Source of the DNA: Marmoricola sp.
Lineage (GTDB): Bacteria; Actinomycetota; Actinomycetes; Propionibacteriales; Nocardioidaceae
Length of the DNA: 64,000 nt
Assembly (NCBI GenBank): GCA_050699415.1
Contig: JBOHDO010000135.1
Coordinates: forward strand, 112-64,111
Reading direction: 5' to 3'
A model generated the notes under the pieces. That model saw nothing but the letters and a program-made list of their open reading frames with translations, made no database searches and was not told where the DNA came from. A program made the translations under genes and the position numbers. This document shows positions 16,830 to 25,963 of the stretch, piece after piece (within the stretch, counting starts at the first letter, position 1; the number at the start of each line of letters is the position of its first letter).

Positions 16830-18110
16830 CTACGAGCTCGACTGCCCCCGGCGAGCCAGCGCGTCCACGGTCACGGCGGCCAGCAGCACCAGCGCGGTCA
16901 CCATGAACTTCGTGGCGGCCGACAGGTTGATCAGTCCCATCCCGTTGTCGATGGTCGCGATCACCACGCCGCCGAGCAGCGCGTGCACCATCTTGCCCCG
17001 GCCGCCGAACAGGCTGGTGCCCCCGATCACCGCCGTCGCCACGGCGTACAGCACCAGCTGGCCGCCGTCGACGTTGGCCGAGATCGAGCCCAGCCGCGCG
17101 GCGTAGATGATCCCGGCCGCGCCCGCGGTCAGGCTGCACAGCGCGAACCCGGCCACCCGGATCCGGCCCAGGTTGATGCCGGCGCGTCGGGCGGCCTCCG
17201 CGTTGCCGCCGATCGCGTACACGTACCGGCCGAACCGGGTCCGGGACAGCAGGATGGTCCACAGCACCACGATCACCAGCACGATCGGGATGTCCCAGGG
17301 CACGCCGTTCACCACGGTGAACCCGACGCCCCGGTTCACGCCGCAGATGACCACCAGCACGATCCCGGCGACTGCCACCGCGACGATCTTCGCGACGGTC
17401 AGCCCGAACGGCGGCACGGCCAGGCCGGACCTGCGCAGGCTGCGGTCCCTGACGAGCAGGATGCCGGCGAACAGCACCACCGAGACCGCGAGCACGATCC
17501 AGGCCGCGGTCATCGGCAGGCTGCTGTTGACCAGGGCGTTGACGTACGCCGGGTCGCTGATGGTGCCGCCGCTGGACTTGCCGCCGAAGCTGTCGATCAG
17601 GAACAGCAGCAGCCCCTGGAAGCCGAGCAGCCCGGCCAGGGTGACCACGAACGAGGGCACCCGCAGCCGCACGATGATCAGGCCCGTCATTGCGCCAATG
17701 GCGGCGGGCACGCCCAGCCCCACCAGGATCGCGGGCAGCCACGGCCAGCCGTGCATCGCCGACAGCCACACCGTGAAGAACCCGCCGACCGCGCCGACGA
17801 AGCCGGCGGACAGGTCGATCTCGCCGAGCAGCAGCACGAACACCTCGGCCATGCCGAGCAGCACGTAGACGCCCGCGTCCTGCGAGAACAGGTTGGTCAG
17901 GTTGCCCCCGGTCAGGAACTCCGAGCTCTGGGTCTGGAAGATCACGACGATGACCACCAGGCCGACCACGACCGGGACCATCCCGCTCTCGCCGCTGCGG
18001 GCACGGCGCCACCAGGCCGCGGTGTACTCGCGCAGTGACCCCGCGAGGACCTCCTCGCCCTCGACCTGCGGGGGTGTGGGCTCCTCCAGGTCCGCCTTGG
18101 TCGTCGTCAT
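16830..18110 (-). CDS. Sugar ABC transporter permease (XylH/GguB-like)
   Basis: LLGEIDLSAG, LRVPSFVVTLAG, TRFGRYVYAIGGNAEAARRAGI, VIGGTSLFGGRG. Confidence 0.95.
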   Translation of the reverse strand: MTTTKADLEEPTPPQVEGEEVLAGSLREYTAAWWRRARSGESGMVPVVVGLVVIVVIFQTQSSEFLTGGNLTNLFSQDAGVYVLLGMAEVFVLLLGEIDLSAGFVGAVGGFFTVWLSAMHGWPWLPAILVGLGVPAAIGAMTGLIIVRLRVPSFVVTLAGLLGFQGLLLFLIDSFGGKSSGGTISDPAYVNALVNSSLPMTAAWIVLAVSVVLFAGILLVRDRSLRRSGLAVPPFGLTVAKIVAVAVAGIVLVVICGVNRGVGFTVVNGVPWDIPIVLVIVVLWTILLSRTRFGRYVYAIGGNAEAARRAGINLGRIRVAGFALCSLTAGAAGIIYAARLGSISANVDGGQLVLYAVATAVIGGTSLFGGRGKMVHALLGGVVIATIDNGMGLINLSAATKFMVTALVLLAAVTVDALARRGQSSS

Positions 18111-18898
18111 CGCCCCTCCTCCCCTGCGCGCTCGCCTGTTCGCAGAGACTTCCTGCCGGTGGTGATCAGCTCGACCACGCTCTGGGTGTCGTAGTCGCCG
18201 GCCGGTCCGCTCTCGGCCATGGCACCCAGGTGCAGGACGGCGATCCGGTCGGCCACCTCGAAGACGTCGTTGAGGTTGTGGGAGATGATCAGCACCGCGA
18301 TGCCCCGGCTGCTCAGCCGCTTGACCAGGTCGAGCACCATCTCGGTCTGGGAGACGCCCAGCGCCGCGGTCGGCTCGTCCAGGATCACGAGCCTGGCCTC
18401 CGCCATCACCGCCCGGGCCACCGCGACGGCCTGCCGCTGGCCGCCCGACAGCGACCGCACCAGCTGGCGGATCGACTTCACCGTGGTCACGTGCAGGTCG
18501 CGCAGGGTCGCGCCCGCCTCACGCTCCATCGAGGGCTCGTCAAGGAACCGGTTCCTCACGTGCTCGCGCCCCAGGAACATGTTCTGCACGATGTCGAGGT
18601 TGTCGCACAGCGCCAGGTCCTGGTAGACCGTGGCGATCCCCGCCGAGTAGGCGTCCCTCGGCGAGTGGAAGCGGACCGCTGACCCTTCCCAGACGACCTC
18701 GCCGCCGTCGGGGTCCCAGATCCCCGAGACGGTCTTGATCAGGGTGGACTTCCCGGCTCCGTTGTCCCCCACCAGGGCGGTGACCTGCCCGGCCAGGATG
18801 TCCAGGTCGACCCCCTTGAGGGCCTGGACCGGGCCGAAGTTCTTGACGACGCCCCGCAGCCGCAGCAGCGGGGCGTCGTCAACGGTGACGGTGCTCAC
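18107..18898 (-). CDS. Sugar ABC transporter ATP-binding protein (single NBD)
   Basis: Walker A GDNGAGKS, VYQDLALCDNL, LSGGQRQ, ILDEP, ISH. GTG start about 18898. Confidence 0.95.
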   Translation of the reverse strand: MSTVTVDDAPLLRLRGVVKNFGPVQALKGVDLDILAGQVTALVGDNGAGKSTLIKTVSGIWDPDGGEVVWEGSAVRFHSPRDAYSAGIATVYQDLALCDNLDIVQNMFLGREHVRNRFLDEPSMEREAGATLRDLHVTTVKSIRQLVRSLSGGQRQAVAVARAVMAEARLVILDEPTAALGVSQTEMVLDLVKRLSSRGIAVLIISHNLNDVFEVADRIAVLHLGAMAESGPAGDYDTQSVVELITTGRKSLRTGERAGEEGR

Positions 18899-18905
18899 CA
18901 GGGGT

Positions 18906-20129
18906 TCACTTGATCCCGTACTTCGCACACGCCTTCGCGTACTTGCCCTTGCACAGCTGGCTCACCGGCACGAACTTGTCCGCCACGATGGTGCTCTCCA
19001 TGTTCTTCGGAGTGACCCACTCGGGCTTCAGCAGCACCGACTTGACGGCCTTGTGCTCCTTGGTGTCCTGGGTGGTGCCGTTGACCAGGTCGCTCGGCGG
19101 GGTCACCCCGGCTCGCAGGTAGACGCCCAGCGCGGCGGCCGCCTGCGCCTCGAGGTAGATCGGCTTGTACGCCGTCCCGCACTGGTAGCCGGTCAGGATG
19201 TTCTGCAGGCCCACCAGGGTCGCGTCCTGGCCCGTCACCGGGAAGGAGTTGGGCTTGACGCCCTGCGACTGCAGGTAGTTGATGATCGGCGCCGCGTTCT
19301 CGTCGTTGGGCACCAGCACCGAGTTGACGCCCTTGTTCGCGGTCAGCGCCTGCTGGAACTCGGTCTCCGCGGTGGGCGGGTCCCAGGTCCCGGCCGGCGT
19401 GGCGGCCTGCTTCCAGCCCGAGGAGAACTTCGGCTTCAGGACCCCGTCGTAGCCCTGCGCGAACAGCGTCGCGTTGTTGTCGGTGGGGTCACCGCGCATC
19501 ACGATCATGTTCGGGTTCTTGACCCCCCACTTGCTCGCGCAGGAGACCATGCCGTTCCCGATCAGCTTGCCGACCTCCACGTTGTTGAAGCTGACGTAGT
19601 AGTCCCGGTCCCCACCCAGGGTGAGCCGGTCGTAGTCGATCACCTTGGCGCCGTGCTGGGTGCCGTACTTCTCGATCTGGGCGCCGACCCCGGCGTCGAG
19701 GGGGTCGACGATGAGCACCGAGGCGCCGTTGGTGATGTCCGACTGGGCGTCGGTCAGCTGGGTGCTGTCGCTGCCGTGTGCGTTCTGGACGATGTAGTCA
19801 CCGGAGGACAGGCCGGCCTTCTGGAAGGACTCCTTCAGGTACGGCGCGTCGAACTCGGTGTAGCGGGCCGAGGTGGTGGTGTCGGGCAGGATCACCGCGA
19901 TCTTGCCCTTGCCCTTCTTGACCAGTCCGGACAGCTTGGACATCGCCGAGAAGTCGTTGGTGAACGAGCTGACCGTGAGGTTCGGCACCTTGGCCCCGGA
20001 GGACCCGGACGAGCCCGAGCCTCCGCTGCCGCCGGCACTGCCACCGCTCCCGCCGCTGCCACAGCCGGCGGCCAGGACCGCGGTCGCCGAGAGCGCCGCG
20101 ACCATCGAGAGACTGCGAGACACGCGCAC
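18906..20129 (-). CDS. Sugar ABC substrate-binding lipoprotein (XylF/ChvE-like)
   Basis: Lipobox LAAGC, ARYTEFDAP, IDYDRL, YVSFNNVEVG, NDENA, VTGQDA, AYKPI. Confidence 0.93.
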   Translation of the reverse strand: MRVSRSLSMVAALSATAVLAAGCGSGGSGGSAGGSGGSGSSGSSGAKVPNLTVSSFTNDFSAMSKLSGLVKKGKGKIAVILPDTTTSARYTEFDAPYLKESFQKAGLSSGDYIVQNAHGSDSTQLTDAQSDITNGASVLIVDPLDAGVGAQIEKYGTQHGAKVIDYDRLTLGGDRDYYVSFNNVEVGKLIGNGMVSCASKWGVKNPNMIVMRGDPTDNNATLFAQGYDGVLKPKFSSGWKQAATPAGTWDPPTAETEFQQALTANKGVNSVLVPNDENAAPIINYLQSQGVKPNSFPVTGQDATLVGLQNILTGYQCGTAYKPIYLEAQAAAALGVYLRAGVTPPSDLVNGTTQDTKEHKAVKSVLLKPEWVTPKNMESTIVADKFVPVSQLCKGKYAKACAKYGIK

Positions 20130-20205
20130 TGTTCATCATCCCCATCACAGGTGTGCCCGCCGACCCATTCGGCAGGGGCGTACGCCATCGCGAACGCTGC
20201 CGCTG

Positions 20206-20270
20206 ACGCTAGTGAGAGTGCCGTGAACGGCGCGTGAACAATTCCGCTACGGCGTGAACAAAGCGTGAAC
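20206..20270 (-). promoter_or_regulatory. Four direct repeats (GTTCACG on the minus strand) plus -10 TAGCGT; putative response-regulator-activated promoter of the ABC operon
   Basis: CGTGAAC at 20222, 20233, 20253 and 20264 (spacing 11, 20, 11). ACGCTA at 20206-20211 reads TAGCGT on the minus strand. Confidence 0.75.
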
Positions 20271-20281
20271 GAGCCGGGTTG

Positions 20282-20992
20282 TCAGCCCGGATTCGAGACC
20301 AAACGGTAACCCGCACGCGGCTGGGTCACGATCAACGGCTCGCCGCCCTCGGTCTCCAGCTTGGCTCGCAGCCGCCGGATGTAGACCCGCACGTACTCGG
20401 TCTCCGTGGCGTAGCCCGGCCCCCACACCCGTCGCAGCAGCTGCGCGTGGGTGAGCAGCTTGCCCCGGTTGGTCACCAGCTCGCGCAGCAGCGCGAACTC
20501 GGTGGGCGTCAGGTGCACCGGCTGCCCGGCGCGACTGACCCGCTGGTCGCCCAGGTCGACCTCGAGGTCGCCGACCTCGATGACACCGGCGACGTCGGGC
20601 TGCGGTGTGACCGAGCGGGTACGCCGCAACGTCGCGGTGATCCGGGCGAGCAGCTCCTCGATGCCGAAGGGCTTGGTCAGGTAGTCGTCGGCCCCCATGT
20701 TCAGGGCGGTCACCTTGTCCCACTCCCCGCCACGGGCGGAGACCACGATCACGCCCACGCTGGACCGCTCCCGGATCCGGCGGCACAGCTCCATGCCGTC
20801 GGTGTCGGGCAGCATCAGGTCGAGCAGCACGATGTCGGGCTGCTCGGTCTCGAGCAGCCGCAGCACGTGCCCACCCTCCGGCGCCACGACCGTGTCGAAG
20901 CCACGCACGTTCAGGTTCGACCGGATCAGGTCGACGATGTTGGGGTCGTCCTCGACCACCAGGACCTTGGTGCGTGGACGGTAGTCAGTCAT
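20282..20992 (-). CDS. OmpR-family response regulator (KdpE-like)
   Basis: LVVEDD, LLDLMLP, GADDYLTKPF, winged helix LTPTEF...RRVWGPGY..ETEYVRVYIRRLRAKLE. Confidence 0.95.
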   Translation of the reverse strand: MTDYRPRTKVLVVEDDPNIVDLIRSNLNVRGFDTVVAPEGGHVLRLLETEQPDIVLLDLMLPDTDGMELCRRIRERSSVGVIVVSARGGEWDKVTALNMGADDYLTKPFGIEELLARITATLRRTRSVTPQPDVAGVIEVGDLEVDLGDQRVSRAGQPVHLTPTEFALLRELVTNRGKLLTHAQLLRRVWGPGYATETEYVRVYIRRLRAKLETEGGEPLIVTQPRAGYRLVSNPG

Positions 20993-23453
20993 CGACTGCC
21001 CCCGCGGCCATCACCGGCGGCTCCTCCGCGGCGGCTTCGGGCTCGACGGGAAGGTCGACCGCGAAGCACAGGCCCGGATCGGCCTGTTCGGCCTGCATGC
21101 TGCCCCCGTGCGCCGCCACGATCGCCCGGCTGATCGACAGCCCGAGGCCGGCCCCCGCGGTGGCGGGGCGGGGTGTCGCAGGGGTGTCCGGCTGGCCGAG
21201 CCGCTCGAGCCGGCCGTCGCCGTCGTCGCGGACCCGGACGGTCACGGTCCGGTCGCCGGCCGCCGCCCGCAGCCACACCCGCGTCCCCGGCGGGTTGTGC
21301 CGGAACGCGTTGTCGAGCAGGTTCACGAAGACCTGCTCCAACCGGTCGTGGTCGGCCCAGATCGGTGGCAGGTCGACCGGTACGTCGACCTCGACCCGTG
21401 GCCTGACCGCGACCGCCAGGCAGTCGCGGGCAGCCTCGAGCACCAGCCGCAGCTCGCACCAGTCGTGCTGCAGCCGCAGGATGCCGGTCTCGATCGTGGA
21501 CAGGTCCAGCAGGTCTCCCACGAGCCGTGCCATCCTCCGCGACTCGACGGCGATGCGGGTCAGGAACCGCTCCCGGGAGTCGCTGTCCCAGTCGACATCG
21601 GGCTGCAGCATCGTGTCGGCGTACCCGGTGATCGCGGTGAGCGGCGTCCGCAGCTCGTGGGAGAGCCTGGCCAGGAAGTCGTGCTGCAGCTGCTGGGTAC
21701 GCCGCAGCGCCGCGGCCTCCTGCGTGGCCTGCTGCGCGCGGTGACGGGCCATCGCGAGCTGCACCGAGTGCGCGGCGTCCTCGACCAGGGCCCGCTCGTC
21801 GGGGTCGGCCGGCTCTCCGTGCCGCGCCACCAGCAGGGCCGCGACCTCCGTGGGGTCGGCGAAGGTGACCAGGTGGAGCCAGCGGTCGTGGCCTGCAGGA
21901 AGCGTCGCCGCGGTGCCGTGGTCGGCGGCCCCGGCGCGGTGCTGCTCCACGACCCGGGCCAGCGCGGTGCCGTCCACACCCTCGTCGGGCTGCCCCGCGA
22001 CACCGGCCAGGGCCAGTTGGCCACCCGACGCCGCGGCCGAGTAGACCGCGACCGACTCGGCGCCCAGGCCACGGCGCAGCACCTCAAGCGCCGTGCGCAG
22101 CGACTCACCGACCGGCGCCGGTCCCCCCAGCGTCTCGAGCATGTCCCGGATCGTCTCCAGCACCAGGTTGCGCGAGGTCAGCTGGCCGACCAGCCGTTCG
22201 CGCTCCAGCGCCGCGGACAGGTAGCCGCCGTACAGCTGGGCCAGGTCCAGCTCGGCCCTGGTGGGGTCGCCGATCCGGGTGCGAAGCACCGTGATCACCC
22301 CGCTGCTGGCATCCGACCCGCCGAAGGGGACCGACCAGGAGCTGGCGACCCGCTGCTCCCAGAGCCGGCGGCGCATCCCGGACCAGGCCTCGGCCGTCCG
22401 TACGTCGCTGACCAGCTCGGGTTCGCCCGTGCGGGCGGCACGACCGATGGCGCCGCCCTCGGACCCGGTCCCGACCAACCGCCATGCCCGACACAGGCCC
22501 TCGGGCAGCCCGAGCGAGCACGACAGCCGCAGCCTGCCCGAACCGTCGGCCAGGTGCAGCGCCAGCCGGTCCGCGCCCAGCGCCGCGCCGAGCGCGGACA
22601 GGACGACCAGTGGTGCGGAGGTGGGGTCGGCGGTCGCGAGTCGCCCGCGCAGCGCGTGCAGCCGGGTGAGCTGGTGATGCGCCGAGCTCTCCGGTGGGTG
22701 GCCCGAGGCCAGCGCCAGTACGTCGTCGGGGTGGCCGCTGACCGGGTCCACCTCTCCCACCACCCGCCCGTGACGCAGCACCACGATCCGGTCGGCCAGG
22801 CCGAACAGCTGCTCGAGGTCGTGCGAGACCACCACCACCGCGCAGCCCTCGACCTGCACCCGGCGCACCAGCCGCTCGACCCGGCCGGTGTCGGTGGTCC
22901 CGAGCGGGTCGGTGGGCTCGTCGAGCAGCAGCAGCCGCCGTGCGGCGATGAGGGCCCGGGCGACCACGAGCAGCTGCCGCTGCACCACGGCGAGGCTGCC
23001 GGCCGTGGCCGTGGTCGGGCCCAGTCGGGCCGCGAGGCCCAGGTCGGCGAGCAGCCGGCGGGCCAGCTCGTGCCGGCTGACCGCCGAGCGCAGCAGCCGC
23101 CAGCGGGGTTCCGCACCGAGCAGCAGGTTCTCGGCGATGTCGAGGTTGTCACACAGCGCGGTGTGCTGCCAGACCAGCGCCGGGGAGGTGTCGGTGCCCA
23201 GGTTGACCCGACCCGCCATCGGCGAGAGCTCGCCGGCCAGGCAGCGCAGCAGAGTGGACTTGCCGGCTCCGCTCTCGCCGGCGATGCCCAGGATCTCCCC
23301 GGAGCCGACCTCGAGGTCCACGCCGTCGATGCCGATCACCCGGCCGTACCCGGCGCGCAGGGCACGGACGACGGCCGCCGGGTCGGAGCGAGGCGCCCGC
23401 CCTGCGATGGGCTCCCCGGCCCGCCGGCTCGTGAGGAAACCGCCAGGTCGCAC
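20985..23453 (-). CDS. Soluble sensor histidine kinase with an N-terminal ABC ATPase domain (NBD-GAF-GAF-HisKA-HATPase_c), 822 aa
   Basis: Walker A GESGAGKST (23253-23279), Q-loop VWQH, LLLDEP, VSHD; two GAF-like segments; LSHELRTP (His599); NLLDNAFRH; GAGLGL. No TM helix. -10 CATAAT 6 nt before GTG. Confidence 0.9.
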   Translation of the reverse strand: MRPGGFLTSRRAGEPIAGRAPRSDPAAVVRALRAGYGRVIGIDGVDLEVGSGEILGIAGESGAGKSTLLRCLAGELSPMAGRVNLGTDTSPALVWQHTALCDNLDIAENLLLGAEPRWRLLRSAVSRHELARRLLADLGLAARLGPTTATAGSLAVVQRQLLVVARALIAARRLLLLDEPTDPLGTTDTGRVERLVRRVQVEGCAVVVVSHDLEQLFGLADRIVVLRHGRVVGEVDPVSGHPDDVLALASGHPPESSAHHQLTRLHALRGRLATADPTSAPLVVLSALGAALGADRLALHLADGSGRLRLSCSLGLPEGLCRAWRLVGTGSEGGAIGRAARTGEPELVSDVRTAEAWSGMRRRLWEQRVASSWSVPFGGSDASSGVITVLRTRIGDPTRAELDLAQLYGGYLSAALERERLVGQLTSRNLVLETIRDMLETLGGPAPVGESLRTALEVLRRGLGAESVAVYSAAASGGQLALAGVAGQPDEGVDGTALARVVEQHRAGAADHGTAATLPAGHDRWLHLVTFADPTEVAALLVARHGEPADPDERALVEDAAHSVQLAMARHRAQQATQEAAALRRTQQLQHDFLARLSHELRTPLTAITGYADTMLQPDVDWDSDSRERFLTRIAVESRRMARLVGDLLDLSTIETGILRLQHDWCELRLVLEAARDCLAVAVRPRVEVDVPVDLPPIWADHDRLEQVFVNLLDNAFRHNPPGTRVWLRAAAGDRTVTVRVRDDGDGRLERLGQPDTPATPRPATAGAGLGLSISRAIVAAHGGSMQAEQADPGLCFAVDLPVEPEAAAEEPPVMAAGAVDD

Positions 23454-23522
23454 AGCGTCATTATGTCCGCTGGAGGCCGCGCCGACATCCCGTTGGCGCG
23501 TTGCGACCGGGACCGGCCGGGC

Positions 23523-24398
23523 TCAGGCCCGGGCGAGCTGCGCCGCGGTGTGCCGGGCGACCGGGGCCATCGGGGTGTCCGGCCGGATCGCGCTGGCCAG
23601 CGAGGCGGCCCAGCCGGCAGCCCGCTCCCAGACGTGGGCGTCGTACCGGCCGGTGGCCCGGACCCGCCCGACGAACCGGGCGCGGTCGGCGGGGCCGAAG
23701 CACCACCAGGCCGCGGCGAGGTCGCTGGCCGGGTCACCGGAGGTGAGGTCCCCGAAGTCGATCAGCCCGCTCAGGCGGCCGTCCCGGTGGAGCAGGTTGA
23801 GCGGGTGCGGGTCACCGTGCAGCCAGTACGGCGGACCCGGCCACGCCGGCGCCGCCAGGGCCCGGCGCCAGGCCGCCCCGAGCGCGTCCACCGGGCCGTC
23901 GAACCGCTCGATGCGTGCCGAGACCACCTCGTCGCGGTCGACGAGCGCGACGCCCCGGTACGGGTTCGCCGGGGCGTCGGCCGGCGCCGGCCGGTGCAGT
24001 GCCACCAGTGCCTCGGCCAGGTCGTCGACGATGCCGCCGCGGGACTCGACGGGCAGTCGTGCCAGCGGCTCGCCGTCGATCCAGGGGCAGACCGTCCAGC
24101 GCCACGGGTAGTCGTCCTGCGGCTCGCCGAGGAACACCGGCACCGGGGTGGCCAGCGTCAGCGGCTCGCTGACCTCGGCCAACCAACGGGCCTCGTGGTC
24201 GATCAGCGGGGCGGCCTCCTCACGCACCGGCAGCCGGACCGCCAGCTTCCGGCCGAGCCGGAAGATCACGTTGTCCATGCCACGATCGACCAGGCGAAGC
24301 TCGCCCGCAGCCCCTGCGGGATCCACGCCGGCGTACTGGGTGTCGACCAGGGCGCGCGCCAATGCCGCGTCGACGGGTCGGCGGTGGGTCTCGGACAC
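23523..24398 (-). CDS. Aminoglycoside-phosphotransferase/choline-kinase-fold protein
   Basis: GMDNVIFRLG, LAVRLP, WLHGDPHPLNLL, IDFGD, GDPASDL. Leaderless GTG with -10 CATACT. Confidence 0.88.
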   Translation of the reverse strand: MSETHRRPVDAALARALVDTQYAGVDPAGAAGELRLVDRGMDNVIFRLGRKLAVRLPVREEAAPLIDHEARWLAEVSEPLTLATPVPVFLGEPQDDYPWRWTVCPWIDGEPLARLPVESRGGIVDDLAEALVALHRPAPADAPANPYRGVALVDRDEVVSARIERFDGPVDALGAAWRRALAAPAWPGPPYWLHGDPHPLNLLHRDGRLSGLIDFGDLTSGDPASDLAAAWWCFGPADRARFVGRVRATGRYDAHVWERAAGWAASLASAIRPDTPMAPVARHTAAQLARA

Positions 24399-24418
24399 CG
24401 CCCGAGTATGCCAACGGC

Positions 24419-25963
24419 TCAGTTGACCTGGCGGTCGCGGTCCTCCCAGTAGGGCGCGCGCAGCTTGAACTTCTGCAGCTTGCCGGTCGCCGTCCGGGCC
24501 AGCTCGTCGCGGAACTCCACCGACGTGGGCGCCTTGTAGCCGGCCACCCTGGACTTGCAGTACTTGATCAGCTCGTCCTCGGTCAGCGAGGACCCGTCGG
24601 CCCTGACCACCAGCGCCTTGATGGTCTCGCCCCACTTCTGGTCGGGCACACCGATCACCGCGACCTCGTTCACGTCGGGGTGGGAGAAGATCACGTCCTC
24701 GACCTCGATCGACGATACGTTCTCGCCGCCGGTGATGATCACGTCCTTCTTGCGGTCGCTGATCGAGAGGTAGCCGTCCTTGTCGATCTCGCCGCCGTCG
24801 CCGGTGTGGAACCAGCCGTCCGCCAGGCAGCGCTCGGTCTCCTCCGGCTGCTGCCAGTAGCCCTCGAGGATCACGTTCGACCGCGCCAGCACCTCTCCCC
24901 CGGGCGCCACGTCGAGGCTGACGCCGATGGCCGGCATGCCGGCCCGGACCAGCCGGGAGGCCCGCTCCTGGGGCTCGAGGTCATCCCACTCCTGGCGGGT
25001 GCGGTTGATGGTCAGCAGCGGCGAGGTCTCGGTGAGACCGTAGATCTGCACGAACTCCCAGCCGAGCTCCTGCTCGACGCGCGCGATGGTCGTGGTCGGC
25101 GGCGGGGCACCGGCGACGATGATCCGCACCCGGTCGCGGCCGGGGCTGTTCCCACCCGGGATGGCGCCGTCCCAGTCCTCGGCGGCGGCGAGTACGGCGT
25201 TGACCACCGCGGGTGCGGCGCACATCGCCGTCACGCCGTACTTCTCGACCCGGCGGAGGATCTCCGCGCCGTCGACCTTGCGCAGCACCACCTGCGGCAC
25301 GCCCATGCCGGTCATCGCGAACGGCATCCCCCAGCCGTTGGCGTGGAACATCGGCAGCGTGTGCAGGTAGACGTCGCGGTCGGTGACGCCGGCATGCAGC
25401 GCGAACGTGACGGCGTTGACCCAGATGTTGCGATGGGTGATCTGCACGCCCTTCGGCCGGGCGGTGGTCCCGGAGGTGTAGTTGATCGTTGCGGTGGCGT
25501 TCTCGTCCGGCTCCCAGGCCCGGGGCTCGGTGCCCTCCAGGAACAGCGCGGAGTCCTCGCCGATCTCGAACTTGTGCTCGCACTCCACCCCGGAGACGGT
25601 CTGCACCAGCTCCGGGTCGTAGAACAGCACCCGGGCGCCGGAGTGCTCGACGATGTAGCCGATCTCGTCGGGCGAGAGCCGGAAGTTGACCGGCACCAGC
25701 ACCCGGCCGTAGCCGCAGACCCCGAAGAACGCGGTGTAGAGCCGCGCGCTGTTGTGCGACACGATCGCGACCCGGTCGCCGGGGTCGAGGCCGAGCTGGT
25801 CGAGCCGCGCCGCCATGGCCCGGGCGAGCTCGCCGACCCGACGGTAGCTCAGCTCACCGAGCGAGGCCGCCGGCTGGTCGGGCTCGTCGGCGATGCCGGT
25901 GCGGTCGGCGTAGCCCGCGAGCGCCCGGTCGAGGAAGTCGTTGACGGTGAACGGCACGAGCAC
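24419..25963 (-). CDS. AMP-binding acyl-CoA synthetase
   Basis: YTSGTTARPKG, YGLTET, FHTGD, DRKKDVIITGGEN, GKLQK. Confidence 0.95.
   Translation of the reverse strand: MLVPFTVNDFLDRALAGYADRTGIADEPDQPAASLGELSYRRVGELARAMAARLDQLGLDPGDRVAIVSHNSARLYTAFFGVCGYGRVLVPVNFRLSPDEIGYIVEHSGARVLFYDPELVQTVSGVECEHKFEIGEDSALFLEGTEPRAWEPDENATATINYTSGTTARPKGVQITHRNIWVNAVTFALHAGVTDRDVYLHTLPMFHANGWGMPFAMTGMGVPQVVLRKVDGAEILRRVEKYGVTAMCAAPAVVNAVLAAAEDWDGAIPGGNSPGRDRVRIIVAGAPPPTTTIARVEQELGWEFVQIYGLTETSPLLTINRTRQEWDDLEPQERASRLVRAGMPAIGVSLDVAPGGEVLARSNVILEGYWQQPEETERCLADGWFHTGDGGEIDKDGYLSISDRKKDVIITGGENVSSIEVEDVIFSHPDVNEVAVIGVPDQKWGETIKALVVRADGSSLTEDELIKYCKSRVAGYKAPTSVEFRDELARTATGKLQKFKLRAPYWEDRDRQVN

What the first reader, a model, noticed from the sequence alone, without database searches (positions are those of the whole stretch)
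20206..20270. Four 7-bp direct repeats with helical phasing: predicted output site of the fused-kinase system
Seen: CGTGAAC four times (20222, 20233, 20253, 20264) as two 11-bp-period pairs 31 bp apart. The proximal pair covers the -35 zone of a TAGCGT -10 that faces the SBP gene. Known: OmpR/PhoB-family dimers bind head-to-tail repeats with 10-11-bp period. The GTTCA core also resembles the Streptomyces PHO box. Inference: the adjacent regulator activates the transporter here, with possible PhoP cross-talk.
Basis: partly seen in the sequence, partly recalled or inferred. Interest (0 to 1): 0.65.

Follow-up and report, generated by a model that had tools for sequence, protein, structure and literature searches.

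The report
Conserved regulator-binding site before sugar transporter
Four evenly phased short DNA repeats just upstream of a sugar-uptake operon are real, are conserved in layout in 26 related gene clusters, and are most likely the docking site where the neighbouring two-component regulator switches the transporter genes on; this is an ordinary kind of switch, but it belongs to an unstudied signalling system.

Summary
On the minus strand, GTTCACG occurs four times (20270-20264, 20259-20253, 20239-20233, 20228-20222), spaced 11/20/11 bp. It lies in the 152-bp gap between an OmpR/KdpE-like response-regulator gene and a CUT2-type sugar-binding-protein gene. About 2e-12 such arrangements are expected by chance per window.

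Comparative evidence supports a function:
- 26 loci carry the same ABC-NBD-GAF-histidine kinase plus regulator, and all have four units yGTTnAyG after the regulator gene.
- The geometry is almost fixed: D1-D2 11 bp, D2-P1 20-21 bp, P1-P2 11-12 bp.
- A TAnnnT -10-like hexamer starts exactly 17 bp after the start of the last repeat.
- A matrix built only from other loci ranks the two window pairs first and second in 64 kb (26.9 and 24.9 bits; next best 12.6).
- Three held-out loci validate the matrix, and 762 kb of unrelated loci contain no tetrad.

The regulator's recognition helix is nearly invariant and keeps the DNA-contact residues of KdpE. The half-site skeleton TTnAY is also KdpE-like.

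Best reading: two phosphorylated regulator dimers bind here and activate a promoter that lacks a -35 element.

PhoP cross-talk is possible for this organism's GTTCACGC units, but the family as a whole does not support it. This is a new member of a known kind, of moderate interest. No binding or transcript data exist.

The parts
20260..20270 (-). Distal unit D1, GTTCACGCTTT (predicted -71..-61). Its spacer is T-rich.
   Evidence: Sequence. Present in 26/26 loci with D1->D2 = 11 bp. Positions 9-11 are A/T in almost all loci despite about 70% GC.
20249..20259 (-). Distal unit D2, GTTCACGCCGT (predicted -60..-50).
   Evidence: The D1+D2 dimer scores 26.9 bits with the leave-one-out matrix, the best hit in the 64-kb window.
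20240..20248 (-). 9-nt gap AGCGGAATT between the two pairs. It is too short for a fifth unit.
   Evidence: D2->P1 start-to-start is 20 bp in 19 and 21 bp in 4 of the 23 loci measured. The three further loci have D1->P1 = 31, i.e. D2->P1 = 20.
20229..20239 (-). Proximal unit P1, GTTCACGCGCC (predicted -40..-30). It covers the place where a -35 hexamer would be.
   Evidence: The hexamer 17 nt upstream of the -10 is CGCGCC, which does not resemble TTGACA (read from the sequence).
20218..20228 (-). Proximal unit P2, GTTCACGGCAC (predicted -29..-19).
   Evidence: The P1+P2 dimer scores 24.9 bits, the second-best hit in the window. The heptamer ends 10 nt before the -10.
20206..20211 (-). -10-like hexamer TAGCGT (TAnnnT).
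   Evidence: TAnnnT starts exactly 17 nt after the start of P2 in all loci. When P2 is placed without reference to the -10, 19 of 22 loci have TAnnnT at +17 and only 2 have it at any other offset from 6 to 39. The E. coli-type sigma-70 scan finds nothing here.
20198..20200 (-). Predicted transcription start, giving a 5' UTR of about 70 nt.
   Evidence: Inferred from the position of the -10 only. No RNA data exist: the only sequencing runs that hold this DNA are cave-metagenome DNA runs.
20282..20992 (-). Response regulator gene (236 aa, Response_reg + Trans_reg_C), the proposed binder.
   Evidence: Pfam. The best solved-structure relative is E. coli KdpE. The equivalents of KdpE Y191, R193, R200 and T215 are conserved. 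The recognition helix is nearly invariant in the 23 loci aligned.
20985..23453 (-). Histidine kinase (822 aa) with the domain order ABC_tran - GAF - HisKA - HATPase_c. It overlaps the regulator gene by 8 nt.
   Evidence: Pfam and NCBIfam. At least 1613 homologues with E<=1e-30; the 120 best listed are nearly all full-length with this architecture and come from uncultured, mostly actinobacterial sources.
18906..20129 (-). First gene of the target operon: a lipoprotein sugar-binding protein (Peripla_BP_4, XylF/ChvE-like).
   Evidence: The lipobox LAAGC is read from the translation.
16830..18928 (-). Rest of the target operon: a single-NBD ABC ATPase (18107-18928) and a BPD_transp_2 permease (16830-18110).
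   Evidence: The same five-gene order is seen in L120-L130.

Best explanation
The four repeats form the operator of the response regulator encoded immediately upstream, the partner of the ABC-NBD-fused histidine kinase. Each 11-bp unit (consensus yGTTnAyG plus 4 weakly conserved bases) would bind one winged-helix domain. Two phosphorylated head-to-tail dimers would occupy D1-D2 (about -71 to -50) and P1-P2 (about -40 to -19). The pair starts are 31-32 bp apart, about three helical turns, so both dimers sit on the same face of the DNA. The proximal dimer takes the place of the missing -35 element and recruits RNA polymerase to the TAGCGT -10, as PhoB does at pho boxes. The distal dimer sits where KdpE sits at kdpFABC and probably adds cooperativity. 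The output is induction of the SBP-ATPase-permease sugar-uptake operon. No terminator was detected between the regulator gene and the operator, so kinase-regulator transcripts probably read through and give a basal level of transporter.

Shown here: the repeats, their conservation, geometry and specificity, and the KdpE-like contact residues. Inferred: who binds, the direction of regulation, the transcription start and the read-through.
For: Repeats and chance estimate.

Synteny: the operator follows the regulator gene in 26/26 loci with this kinase type, including lineages labelled Nocardioidaceae, Streptosporangiaceae, Trebonia, Acidimicrobiales and Gemmatimonadota.

Geometry in the 23 loci: D1-D2 11 bp in 23/23; D2-P1 20 bp (19) or 21 bp (4); P1-P2 11 bp (18) or 12 bp (5). 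P2 to TAnnnT is 17 bp in all. The three later loci fit the same ranges.

Leave-one-out matrix: the window's two pairs are the top two of about 128,000 positions, at 26.9 and 24.9 bits against 12.6 for the next. Three held-out loci show the tetrad as their top hits. No tetrad occurs in 762 kb of 100 unrelated loci.

Variant L048/L077: the operator still follows the regulator gene, although the next operon begins with a tandem-NBD ATPase rather than an SBP. The site therefore tracks the regulator, not the SBP gene.

Unit composition over 100 units: T2 100%, T3 99%, A5 95%, G1 80%, G7 80%, Y6 97%, position 4 free. This is the TTnAY skeleton of KdpE half-sites TTTAYA with a 5-bp AT-rich spacer (PMC3264566).

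The regulator keeps KdpE Y191, R193, R200 and T215, and its recognition helix is almost invariant across loci, matching the invariant TT..A core. No -35-like hexamer is present (sequence).
Against: There is no binding, footprint, transcription-start or expression data, and no RNA run holds this DNA. It is therefore unknown whether the motif is restricted to this promoter. The regulator's helix does not vary, so no covariation test between protein and DNA was possible. The window's own units equal a reported PhoP box, GTTCACGC (PMC9019756), so another OmpR-family protein could also bind here. Activation rather than repression is inferred only from position and from the absence of a -35.
Confidence: 0.72

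Rival explanations
1. The site is a PHO box. The global phosphate regulator PhoP, not the neighbouring regulator, binds the GTTCAC repeats and puts the transporter under phosphate control.
For: The window units GTTCACGC match the first six positions of the Streptomyces PHO unit G(G/T)TCAYYYR(G/C)G (PMC2275107). They are identical to the 8-bp PHO-like consensus bound by Actinosynnema PhoP (PMC9019756). PHO operators also use 11-nt direct repeats, often two or four.
Against: Across the orthologous operators, position 4 is C in only 45/100 units (A 29, T 18, G 8), whereas it is C in the PHO consensus. Many family members have no TCA core at all, for example GTTAAT, GTTTAT, TTTAAC. Position 7 is G in 80% of units, against a pyrimidine in the PHO consensus. 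The SBP is xylose/ChvE-like, with no link to phosphate. The site co-occurs strictly with a KdpE-like regulator gene. The C at position 4 in Nocardioidaceae-type loci can be explained by GC drift at a free position, since G also occurs there in D2.
Confidence: 0.07
2. The cognate regulator binds here but acts as a repressor or roadblock. It would shut the SBP promoter, or block read-through from the kinase-regulator genes, until the signal removes it.
For: The proximal pair overlaps the core promoter region (-40 to -19). The operator lies in the path of any kinase-regulator transcript, and no terminator precedes it.
Against: Repressors usually cover the -10 or the start site, and here the -10 is left free at a fixed 6 nt beyond the P2 unit in all loci. 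There is no -35-like element, the usual sign of activator dependence. The heptamer ends 10 bp before the -10, as recalled for PhoB-activated promoters (own knowledge). The distal pair lies at -71..-50, as at the KdpE-activated kdpFABC promoter (-72..-50; PMC3264566).
Confidence: 0.12
3. Another conserved OmpR-family regulator (a genuine KdpE, GlnR, MtrA or AfsQ1-like protein) is the main binder, and the neighbouring regulator has other targets.
For: The TTnAY half-site is generic enough that a true KdpE could recognise it (PMC3264566). GlnR operators are also made of four 11-nt repeats (PMC3561978).
Against: The GlnR box gTnAc-n6-GaAAc, with its conserved GAAAC b-site, is not present as a conserved feature. 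The strict adjacency to this regulator gene in 26/26 loci, including the rearranged L048/L077, is not expected for a global factor's site.
Confidence: 0.05
4. The repeats are a chance or structural feature, such as a replication-slippage duplication or a remnant of a mobile element, with no regulatory role.
For: The two pairs are 83% identical 18-mers, so a local duplication could have produced them.
Against: The core positions are conserved while the spacers diverge across loci whose kinases share only 37-59% identity. The distance to a TAnnnT hexamer is fixed. The chance expectation is 2e-12 per window.
Confidence: 0.01

Closest known systems
KdpE operator at the E. coli kdpFABC promoter
   Same: [quoted passage not shown] A 5-bp AT-rich spacer gives an 11-bp period. 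The site lies at -72..-50, matching the predicted -71..-50 of the distal pair. The regulator here is most similar to KdpE among solved structures and keeps Y191, R193, R200 and T215 (PMC3264566).
   Different: There are four units in two pairs, not one pair. The second pair overlaps the -35 region. A G is conserved on each side of the core (G1 and G7, 80% each). The target is a sugar ABC importer, not a K+ pump. The kinase has an ABC nucleotide-binding domain in place of the KdpD sensor and membrane part.
PhoB pho box (E. coli) / class II activation by OmpR-PhoB regulators
   Same: 7-bp direct repeats with a 4-bp spacer replace the -35. The downstream heptamer ends 10 bp before the -10 (own knowledge of pho promoters). 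Activator dependence is implied by the missing -35.
   Different: The half-site is GTTnAYG, not TGTCA(T/C). An extra dimer site lies 9 nt upstream rather than being contiguous. There is no link to phosphate.
Streptomyces/actinomycete PHO box (PhoP)
   Same: 11-nt direct repeat units, often two or four. The window's GTTCAC core matches the PHO-box core, and the full 8-mer GTTCACGC matches the Actinosynnema PHO-like consensus (PMC2275107, PMC9019756).
   Different: In the family consensus, position 4 is free and position 7 is G. The two pairs are separated by a 9-nt gap. The site tracks a KdpE-like regulator and a sugar transporter.
Transporter-coupled two-component modules (BceRS-BceAB, DcuS-DctA)
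   Same: A regulator induces the very transporter that is thought to feed information to its kinase (PMC3023708, PMC4280142). This may be a similar feedback design.
   Different: Here the kinase is soluble and is itself fused to a transporter-type ATPase domain. The coupling is only inferred and was not the subject of this finding.

Membership tests
OmpR/PhoB-family response-regulator operator | Tandem direct repeats of 6-7 bp with a 10-11 bp period | tested here: met
   The four GTTCACG are spaced 11/20/11. D1-D2 is 11 bp in 23/23 loci and P1-P2 is 11-12 bp.
OmpR/PhoB-family response-regulator operator | A winged-helix (Trans_reg_C) regulator available as the binder | tested here: met
   The adjacent gene 20282-20992 encodes Response_reg + Trans_reg_C. 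It is adjacent in 26/26 loci.
OmpR/PhoB-family response-regulator operator | Defined position relative to a promoter (-35 overlap or upstream) | tested here: met
   TAnnnT lies at a fixed +17 from P2. The transcription start itself has not been mapped.
OmpR/PhoB-family response-regulator operator | Demonstrated protein binding | not testable with these tools
   Requires EMSA, footprinting or DAP-seq.
Actinomycete PHO box (PhoP) | 11-nt unit matching G(G/T)TCAYYYR(G/C)G | tested here: inconclusive
   The window units match positions 1-6 but not position 7 (G instead of Y), and mostly not positions 9-11 (sequence against PMC2275107). They do equal GTTCACGC of PMC9019756.
Actinomycete PHO box (PhoP) | The TCA core (C at position 4) conserved in orthologous sites | tested here: not met
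   Position 4 is C 45, A 29, T 18, G 8 out of 100 units.
Actinomycete PHO box (PhoP) | The target belongs to phosphate metabolism | tested here: not met
   The SBP is XylF/ChvE-like and the permease GguB-like.
KdpE operator | Half-sites TTTAYA with a 5-bp spacer | tested here: met
   The skeleton TTnAY is present in 95-100% of units, and the D1 spacer is A/T-rich (PMC3264566). Position 4 is T in only 18% of units.
KdpE operator | Located upstream of kdpFABC and served by KdpD/KdpE | tested here: not met
   The target is a CUT2 sugar transporter. The regulator scores 196 bits against the KdpE equivalog cut-off of 325. The kinase lacks the KdpD N-terminal domain.
GlnR box | gTnAc-n6-GaAAc with a conserved GAAAC b-site | tested here: not met
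   No conserved GAAAC unit appears in the aligned operators (PMC3561978).

The most novel reading that the evidence does not exclude
The fixed 2+2 layout has a KdpE-position dimer and a PhoB-position dimer separated by an invariant 9-10 nt gap, with a total span of always 42-43 bp. It may encode an obligatory four-protomer assembly of the regulator, giving a sharp, switch-like induction of the transporter. Because that transporter is probably the kinase's own signal source, this would close a positive flux-sensing loop. In the Nocardioidaceae-type members, whose units have become perfect GTTCACGC PHO-like boxes, PhoP might additionally gate the loop and so link sugar uptake to phosphate status.
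Probability: 0.15. Interest if true: 0.65.

Novelty: new member of a known kind. Interest (0 to 1): 0.45.

Why it matters
The kinase family (an ABC ATPase domain fused to a GAF-histidine kinase) is large: at least 1613 homologues, and almost all of the best 120 come from uncultured sources, mostly actinobacteria. I found no paper describing it. A well-defined, conserved output site gives that system a concrete experimental handle. It supplies a short promoter fragment for reporters, a probe for binding assays and a matrix for regulon prediction. It also shows that the system's conserved output is the adjacent sugar importer, which any model of what the fused kinase senses has to explain. As a piece of DNA, it is a conventional OmpR/PhoB-type operator.

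Tried and rejected
As substitutes I scanned the 64-kb window, about 290 kb of family loci and 762 kb of unrelated loci.
- E. coli-type sigma-70 promoter and intrinsic-terminator scan of 19900-20500: nothing found. This is as expected for an actinobacterial, activator-dependent promoter.
- Rfam on 19900-20500: only a meaningless snoRNA hit, E = 0.95.
- RNA evidence for the transcription start: only cave-metagenome DNA runs hold the sequence.
- Covariation between the regulator's recognition helix and the motif: the helix is essentially invariant, so the test has no power.
- Autoregulatory site upstream of the kinase gene: none found in the window or the loci.
- A structured 5' UTR: a weak hairpin in close relatives with little covariation. 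Not pursued.
- GlnR box: rejected on sequence.
- Literature on ABC-fused kinases and on GTTCACG: nothing on this system. Two PhoP papers contain the word.
- The first Markov simulation timed out and was replaced by an analytic estimate.

Full report
**Observation.** The + strand carries CGTGAAC at 20222, 20233, 20253 and 20264. All genes in this region lie on the - strand, where the sequence reads:

GTTCACGCTTT GTTCACGCCGT AGCGGAATT GTTCACGCGCC GTTCACGGCAC TCTCAC TAGCGT.

I call the four 11-nt units D1, D2, P1 and P2. The heptamer alone is not unusual: 15 copies in the window against 8.65 +/- 3.06 in shuffles. The arrangement is. About 5e-4 perfect 7-N4-7 dimers and about 2e-12 arrangements of four units at 11/20/11 are expected per window. 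The two perfect dimers are the only ones in 64 kb.

**Context.** Pfam and NCBIfam give this gene order on the - strand:
- An 822-aa kinase with ABC_tran, GAF, HisKA and HATPase_c domains (20985-23453).
- An OmpR/PhoB-type response regulator (20282-20992) that overlaps the kinase gene by 8 nt.
- A 152-bp gap that holds the repeats.
- A lipoprotein sugar-binding protein of the Peripla_BP_4 type, XylF/ChvE-like (18906-20129).
- A single-domain ABC ATPase (18107-18928).
- A BPD_transp_2 permease (16830-18110).

D1 starts 11 nt after the regulator's stop codon, and no terminator-like site was found. The DNA comes from a cave metagenome, and no RNA runs hold it.

**Comparative test: loci.**
- The kinase type has at least 1613 homologues with E<=1e-30. 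The best 120 are almost all from uncultured sources, mostly labelled as actinobacteria, and the nearest are Marmoricola/Nocardioidaceae MAGs at 58% identity.
- I collected loci from species-representative genomes, from metagenome contigs and by exact look-up of homologues.
- Every locus that contained the DNA after the regulator gene and a following transporter operon (26 loci, 25 non-redundant) carries four units in the same order.

**Comparative test: geometry.**
- Measured in 23 loci, D1->D2 is 11 bp in 23/23.
- D2->P1 is 20 bp in 19 loci and 21 bp in 4.
- P1->P2 is 11 bp in 18 loci and 12 bp in 5.
- No locus combines 21 with 12, so the D1->P2 span is always 42 or 43 bp.
- The three loci added later fit the same ranges.
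- A TAnnnT hexamer begins exactly 17 nt after the start of P2 in every locus.
- My first anchoring used that hexamer, so I repeated it with a rule that ignores the -10. TAnnnT then sits at +17 in 19 of 22 loci and at any other offset between 6 and 39 only twice in total.

**Specificity.**
- A position weight matrix was built from 84 units of the 21 other non-redundant loci and scanned over both strands of the window. D1-D2 (26.9 bits) and P1-P2 (24.9 bits) rank first and second; the next best dimer scores 12.6 bits.
- No comparable site lies upstream of the kinase gene, in the window or in the other loci.
- Three loci that were not used for the matrix show the tetrad as their two top hits at the expected place. 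Their MAGs are labelled Gemmatimonadota, Acidimicrobiales and Trebonia.
- In 762 kb of 100 unrelated loci there is no tetrad.
- In the rearranged variant L048/L077, the operator still follows the regulator gene, but the next operon starts with a tandem-domain CUT2 ATPase. The site therefore tracks the regulator rather than the SBP gene.

**The motif.** Over 100 units the composition is G1 80%, T2 100%, T3 99%, position 4 free (C 45, A 29, T 18, G 8), A5 95%, Y6 97% and G7 80%. In the 84 units used for the matrix, the base before the unit is a pyrimidine in 98%. Positions 9-11 of D1 are A/T-rich although the background is about 70% GC.

**Who binds.** Among solved structures the regulator is most similar to E. 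coli KdpE (E = 3e-50), followed by RegX3, MtrA and M. tuberculosis PhoP. It reaches no NCBIfam equivalog cut-off.

In the alignment to KdpE it keeps Y191, R193, R200 and T215. Of these, R193, R200 and T215 are the residues shown to be needed for KdpE-DNA binding (PMC3264566).

KdpE half-sites are TTTATA and TTTACA, with invariant TT and a 5-bp AT-rich spacer, and they lie at -72..-50 (PMC3264566). The skeleton TTnAY, the 11-bp period, the AT-rich D1 spacer and the predicted position of D1-D2 (-71..-50 if transcription starts about 7 nt after the -10) all match.

The regulator's recognition helix (ETEYVRVYVRRLRAKLE) is almost invariant in the 23 loci aligned. This fits the invariant DNA core, but it removes any chance of a covariation test.

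**Mechanism proposed.** Two phosphorylated head-to-tail dimers bind on one face of the helix; the pair starts are 31-32 bp apart, about three turns. P1-P2 covers -40..-19. The hexamer at the usual -35 distance is CGCGCC, so the promoter has no -35 element. The P2 heptamer ends 10 bp before the -10, the geometry I recall for PhoB-activated promoters (own knowledge). This points to activation of the sugar-uptake operon. Transcripts from the kinase-regulator genes probably read through and give a basal level. These steps are inferred, not shown.

**PhoP cross-talk.** The Streptomyces PHO unit is G(G/T)TCAYYYR(G/C)G (PMC2275107). Actinosynnema PhoP binds PHO-like boxes with the consensus GTTCACGC (PMC9019756), which is exactly the window's unit. 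Cross-binding in this organism therefore cannot be dismissed.

As the main explanation it fails, for three reasons:
- Orthologous operators in other members read GTTAAT, GTTTAT or TTTAAC. Position 4 is free there, whereas it is C in the PHO consensus and PhoP is thought to contact it.
- Position 7 is G rather than a pyrimidine.
- The cargo looks like a monosaccharide.

The prevalence of C (and of G in D2) at position 4 in the GC-rich Nocardioidaceae-type loci is what drift at an unconstrained position would produce. The GlnR box gTnAc-n6-GaAAc (PMC3561978) is not conserved here.

**Limits.** There is no experimental evidence of binding, transcription start or regulation. I found no literature on this kinase family or its operator.

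**Verdict.** This is a real, strongly conserved cis-element and very probably the operator of the adjacent KdpE-like regulator. It is a new member of the OmpR/PhoB direct-repeat operator kind. It is of moderate interest, mainly as the experimental handle on an uncharacterised transporter-fused kinase system.

Noticed in passing
L048:4505-6230 and L077:1180-2934: A variant of the cassette. After the kinase, the regulator and the same operator comes a tandem-domain CUT2 ATPase (528-544 aa), then a permease, instead of an SBP plus a single-domain ATPase. This bears on whether the kinase's ABC domain substitutes for a missing second ATPase domain.
   Followed up: partly
L040, L041, L042, L044, L126, L130 (RR-SBP gaps): One sub-group has a 12-bp instead of an 11-bp P1->P2 period. 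Loci with a 21-bp D2->P1 distance keep an 11-bp P1->P2 period, so the total D1->P2 span is always 42 or 43 bp. This suggests a constraint on the whole assembly.
   Followed up: partly
window 20130-20198 (-) and the equivalent 5' UTRs of L120-L127: A GC-rich hairpin (CCGGCCG...CGGCCGG in relatives; GCCCCTGCCGA...TCGGCGGGC in the window) recurs in the predicted 5' UTR of the SBP gene, with little covariation. The region just before the GTG start (AAGGGATGGTGCAGCGTG in relatives) is also conserved.
   Followed up: partly
L058:2890-2965: An unrelated dCache-HAMP-PAS kinase and OmpR-type regulator are followed by five TTTAC direct repeats about 10-11 bp apart, then a TATAAT, then two MFS sugar-transporter genes. 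This is the same design (regulator gene, repeats, transporter) in a different two-component system.
   Followed up: partly
L124:10445, L125:10372, L126:10798 (antisense, inside the permease gene): Matrix dimers of 18-24 bits with a 12-bp period recur at one place inside the permease gene on the antisense strand. This is probably a conserved peptide (..VINGIVN..) rather than a binding site.
   Followed up: no
L128:8013-8209, L129:4727-5025, L130:7004-7236: The public gene calls give a 345-347-aa SBP and a small antisense ORF in the regulator-SBP gap. The SBP reading frames extend further upstream to a signal peptide and lipobox, so the calls look 5'-truncated and the small ORFs spurious.
   Followed up: no
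window 23454-24635: An APH-family phosphotransferase gene (23523-24635, -) ends 70 nt before the kinase start. In relatives the upstream neighbours differ, so the promoter of the kinase-regulator pair is undefined.
   Followed up: no
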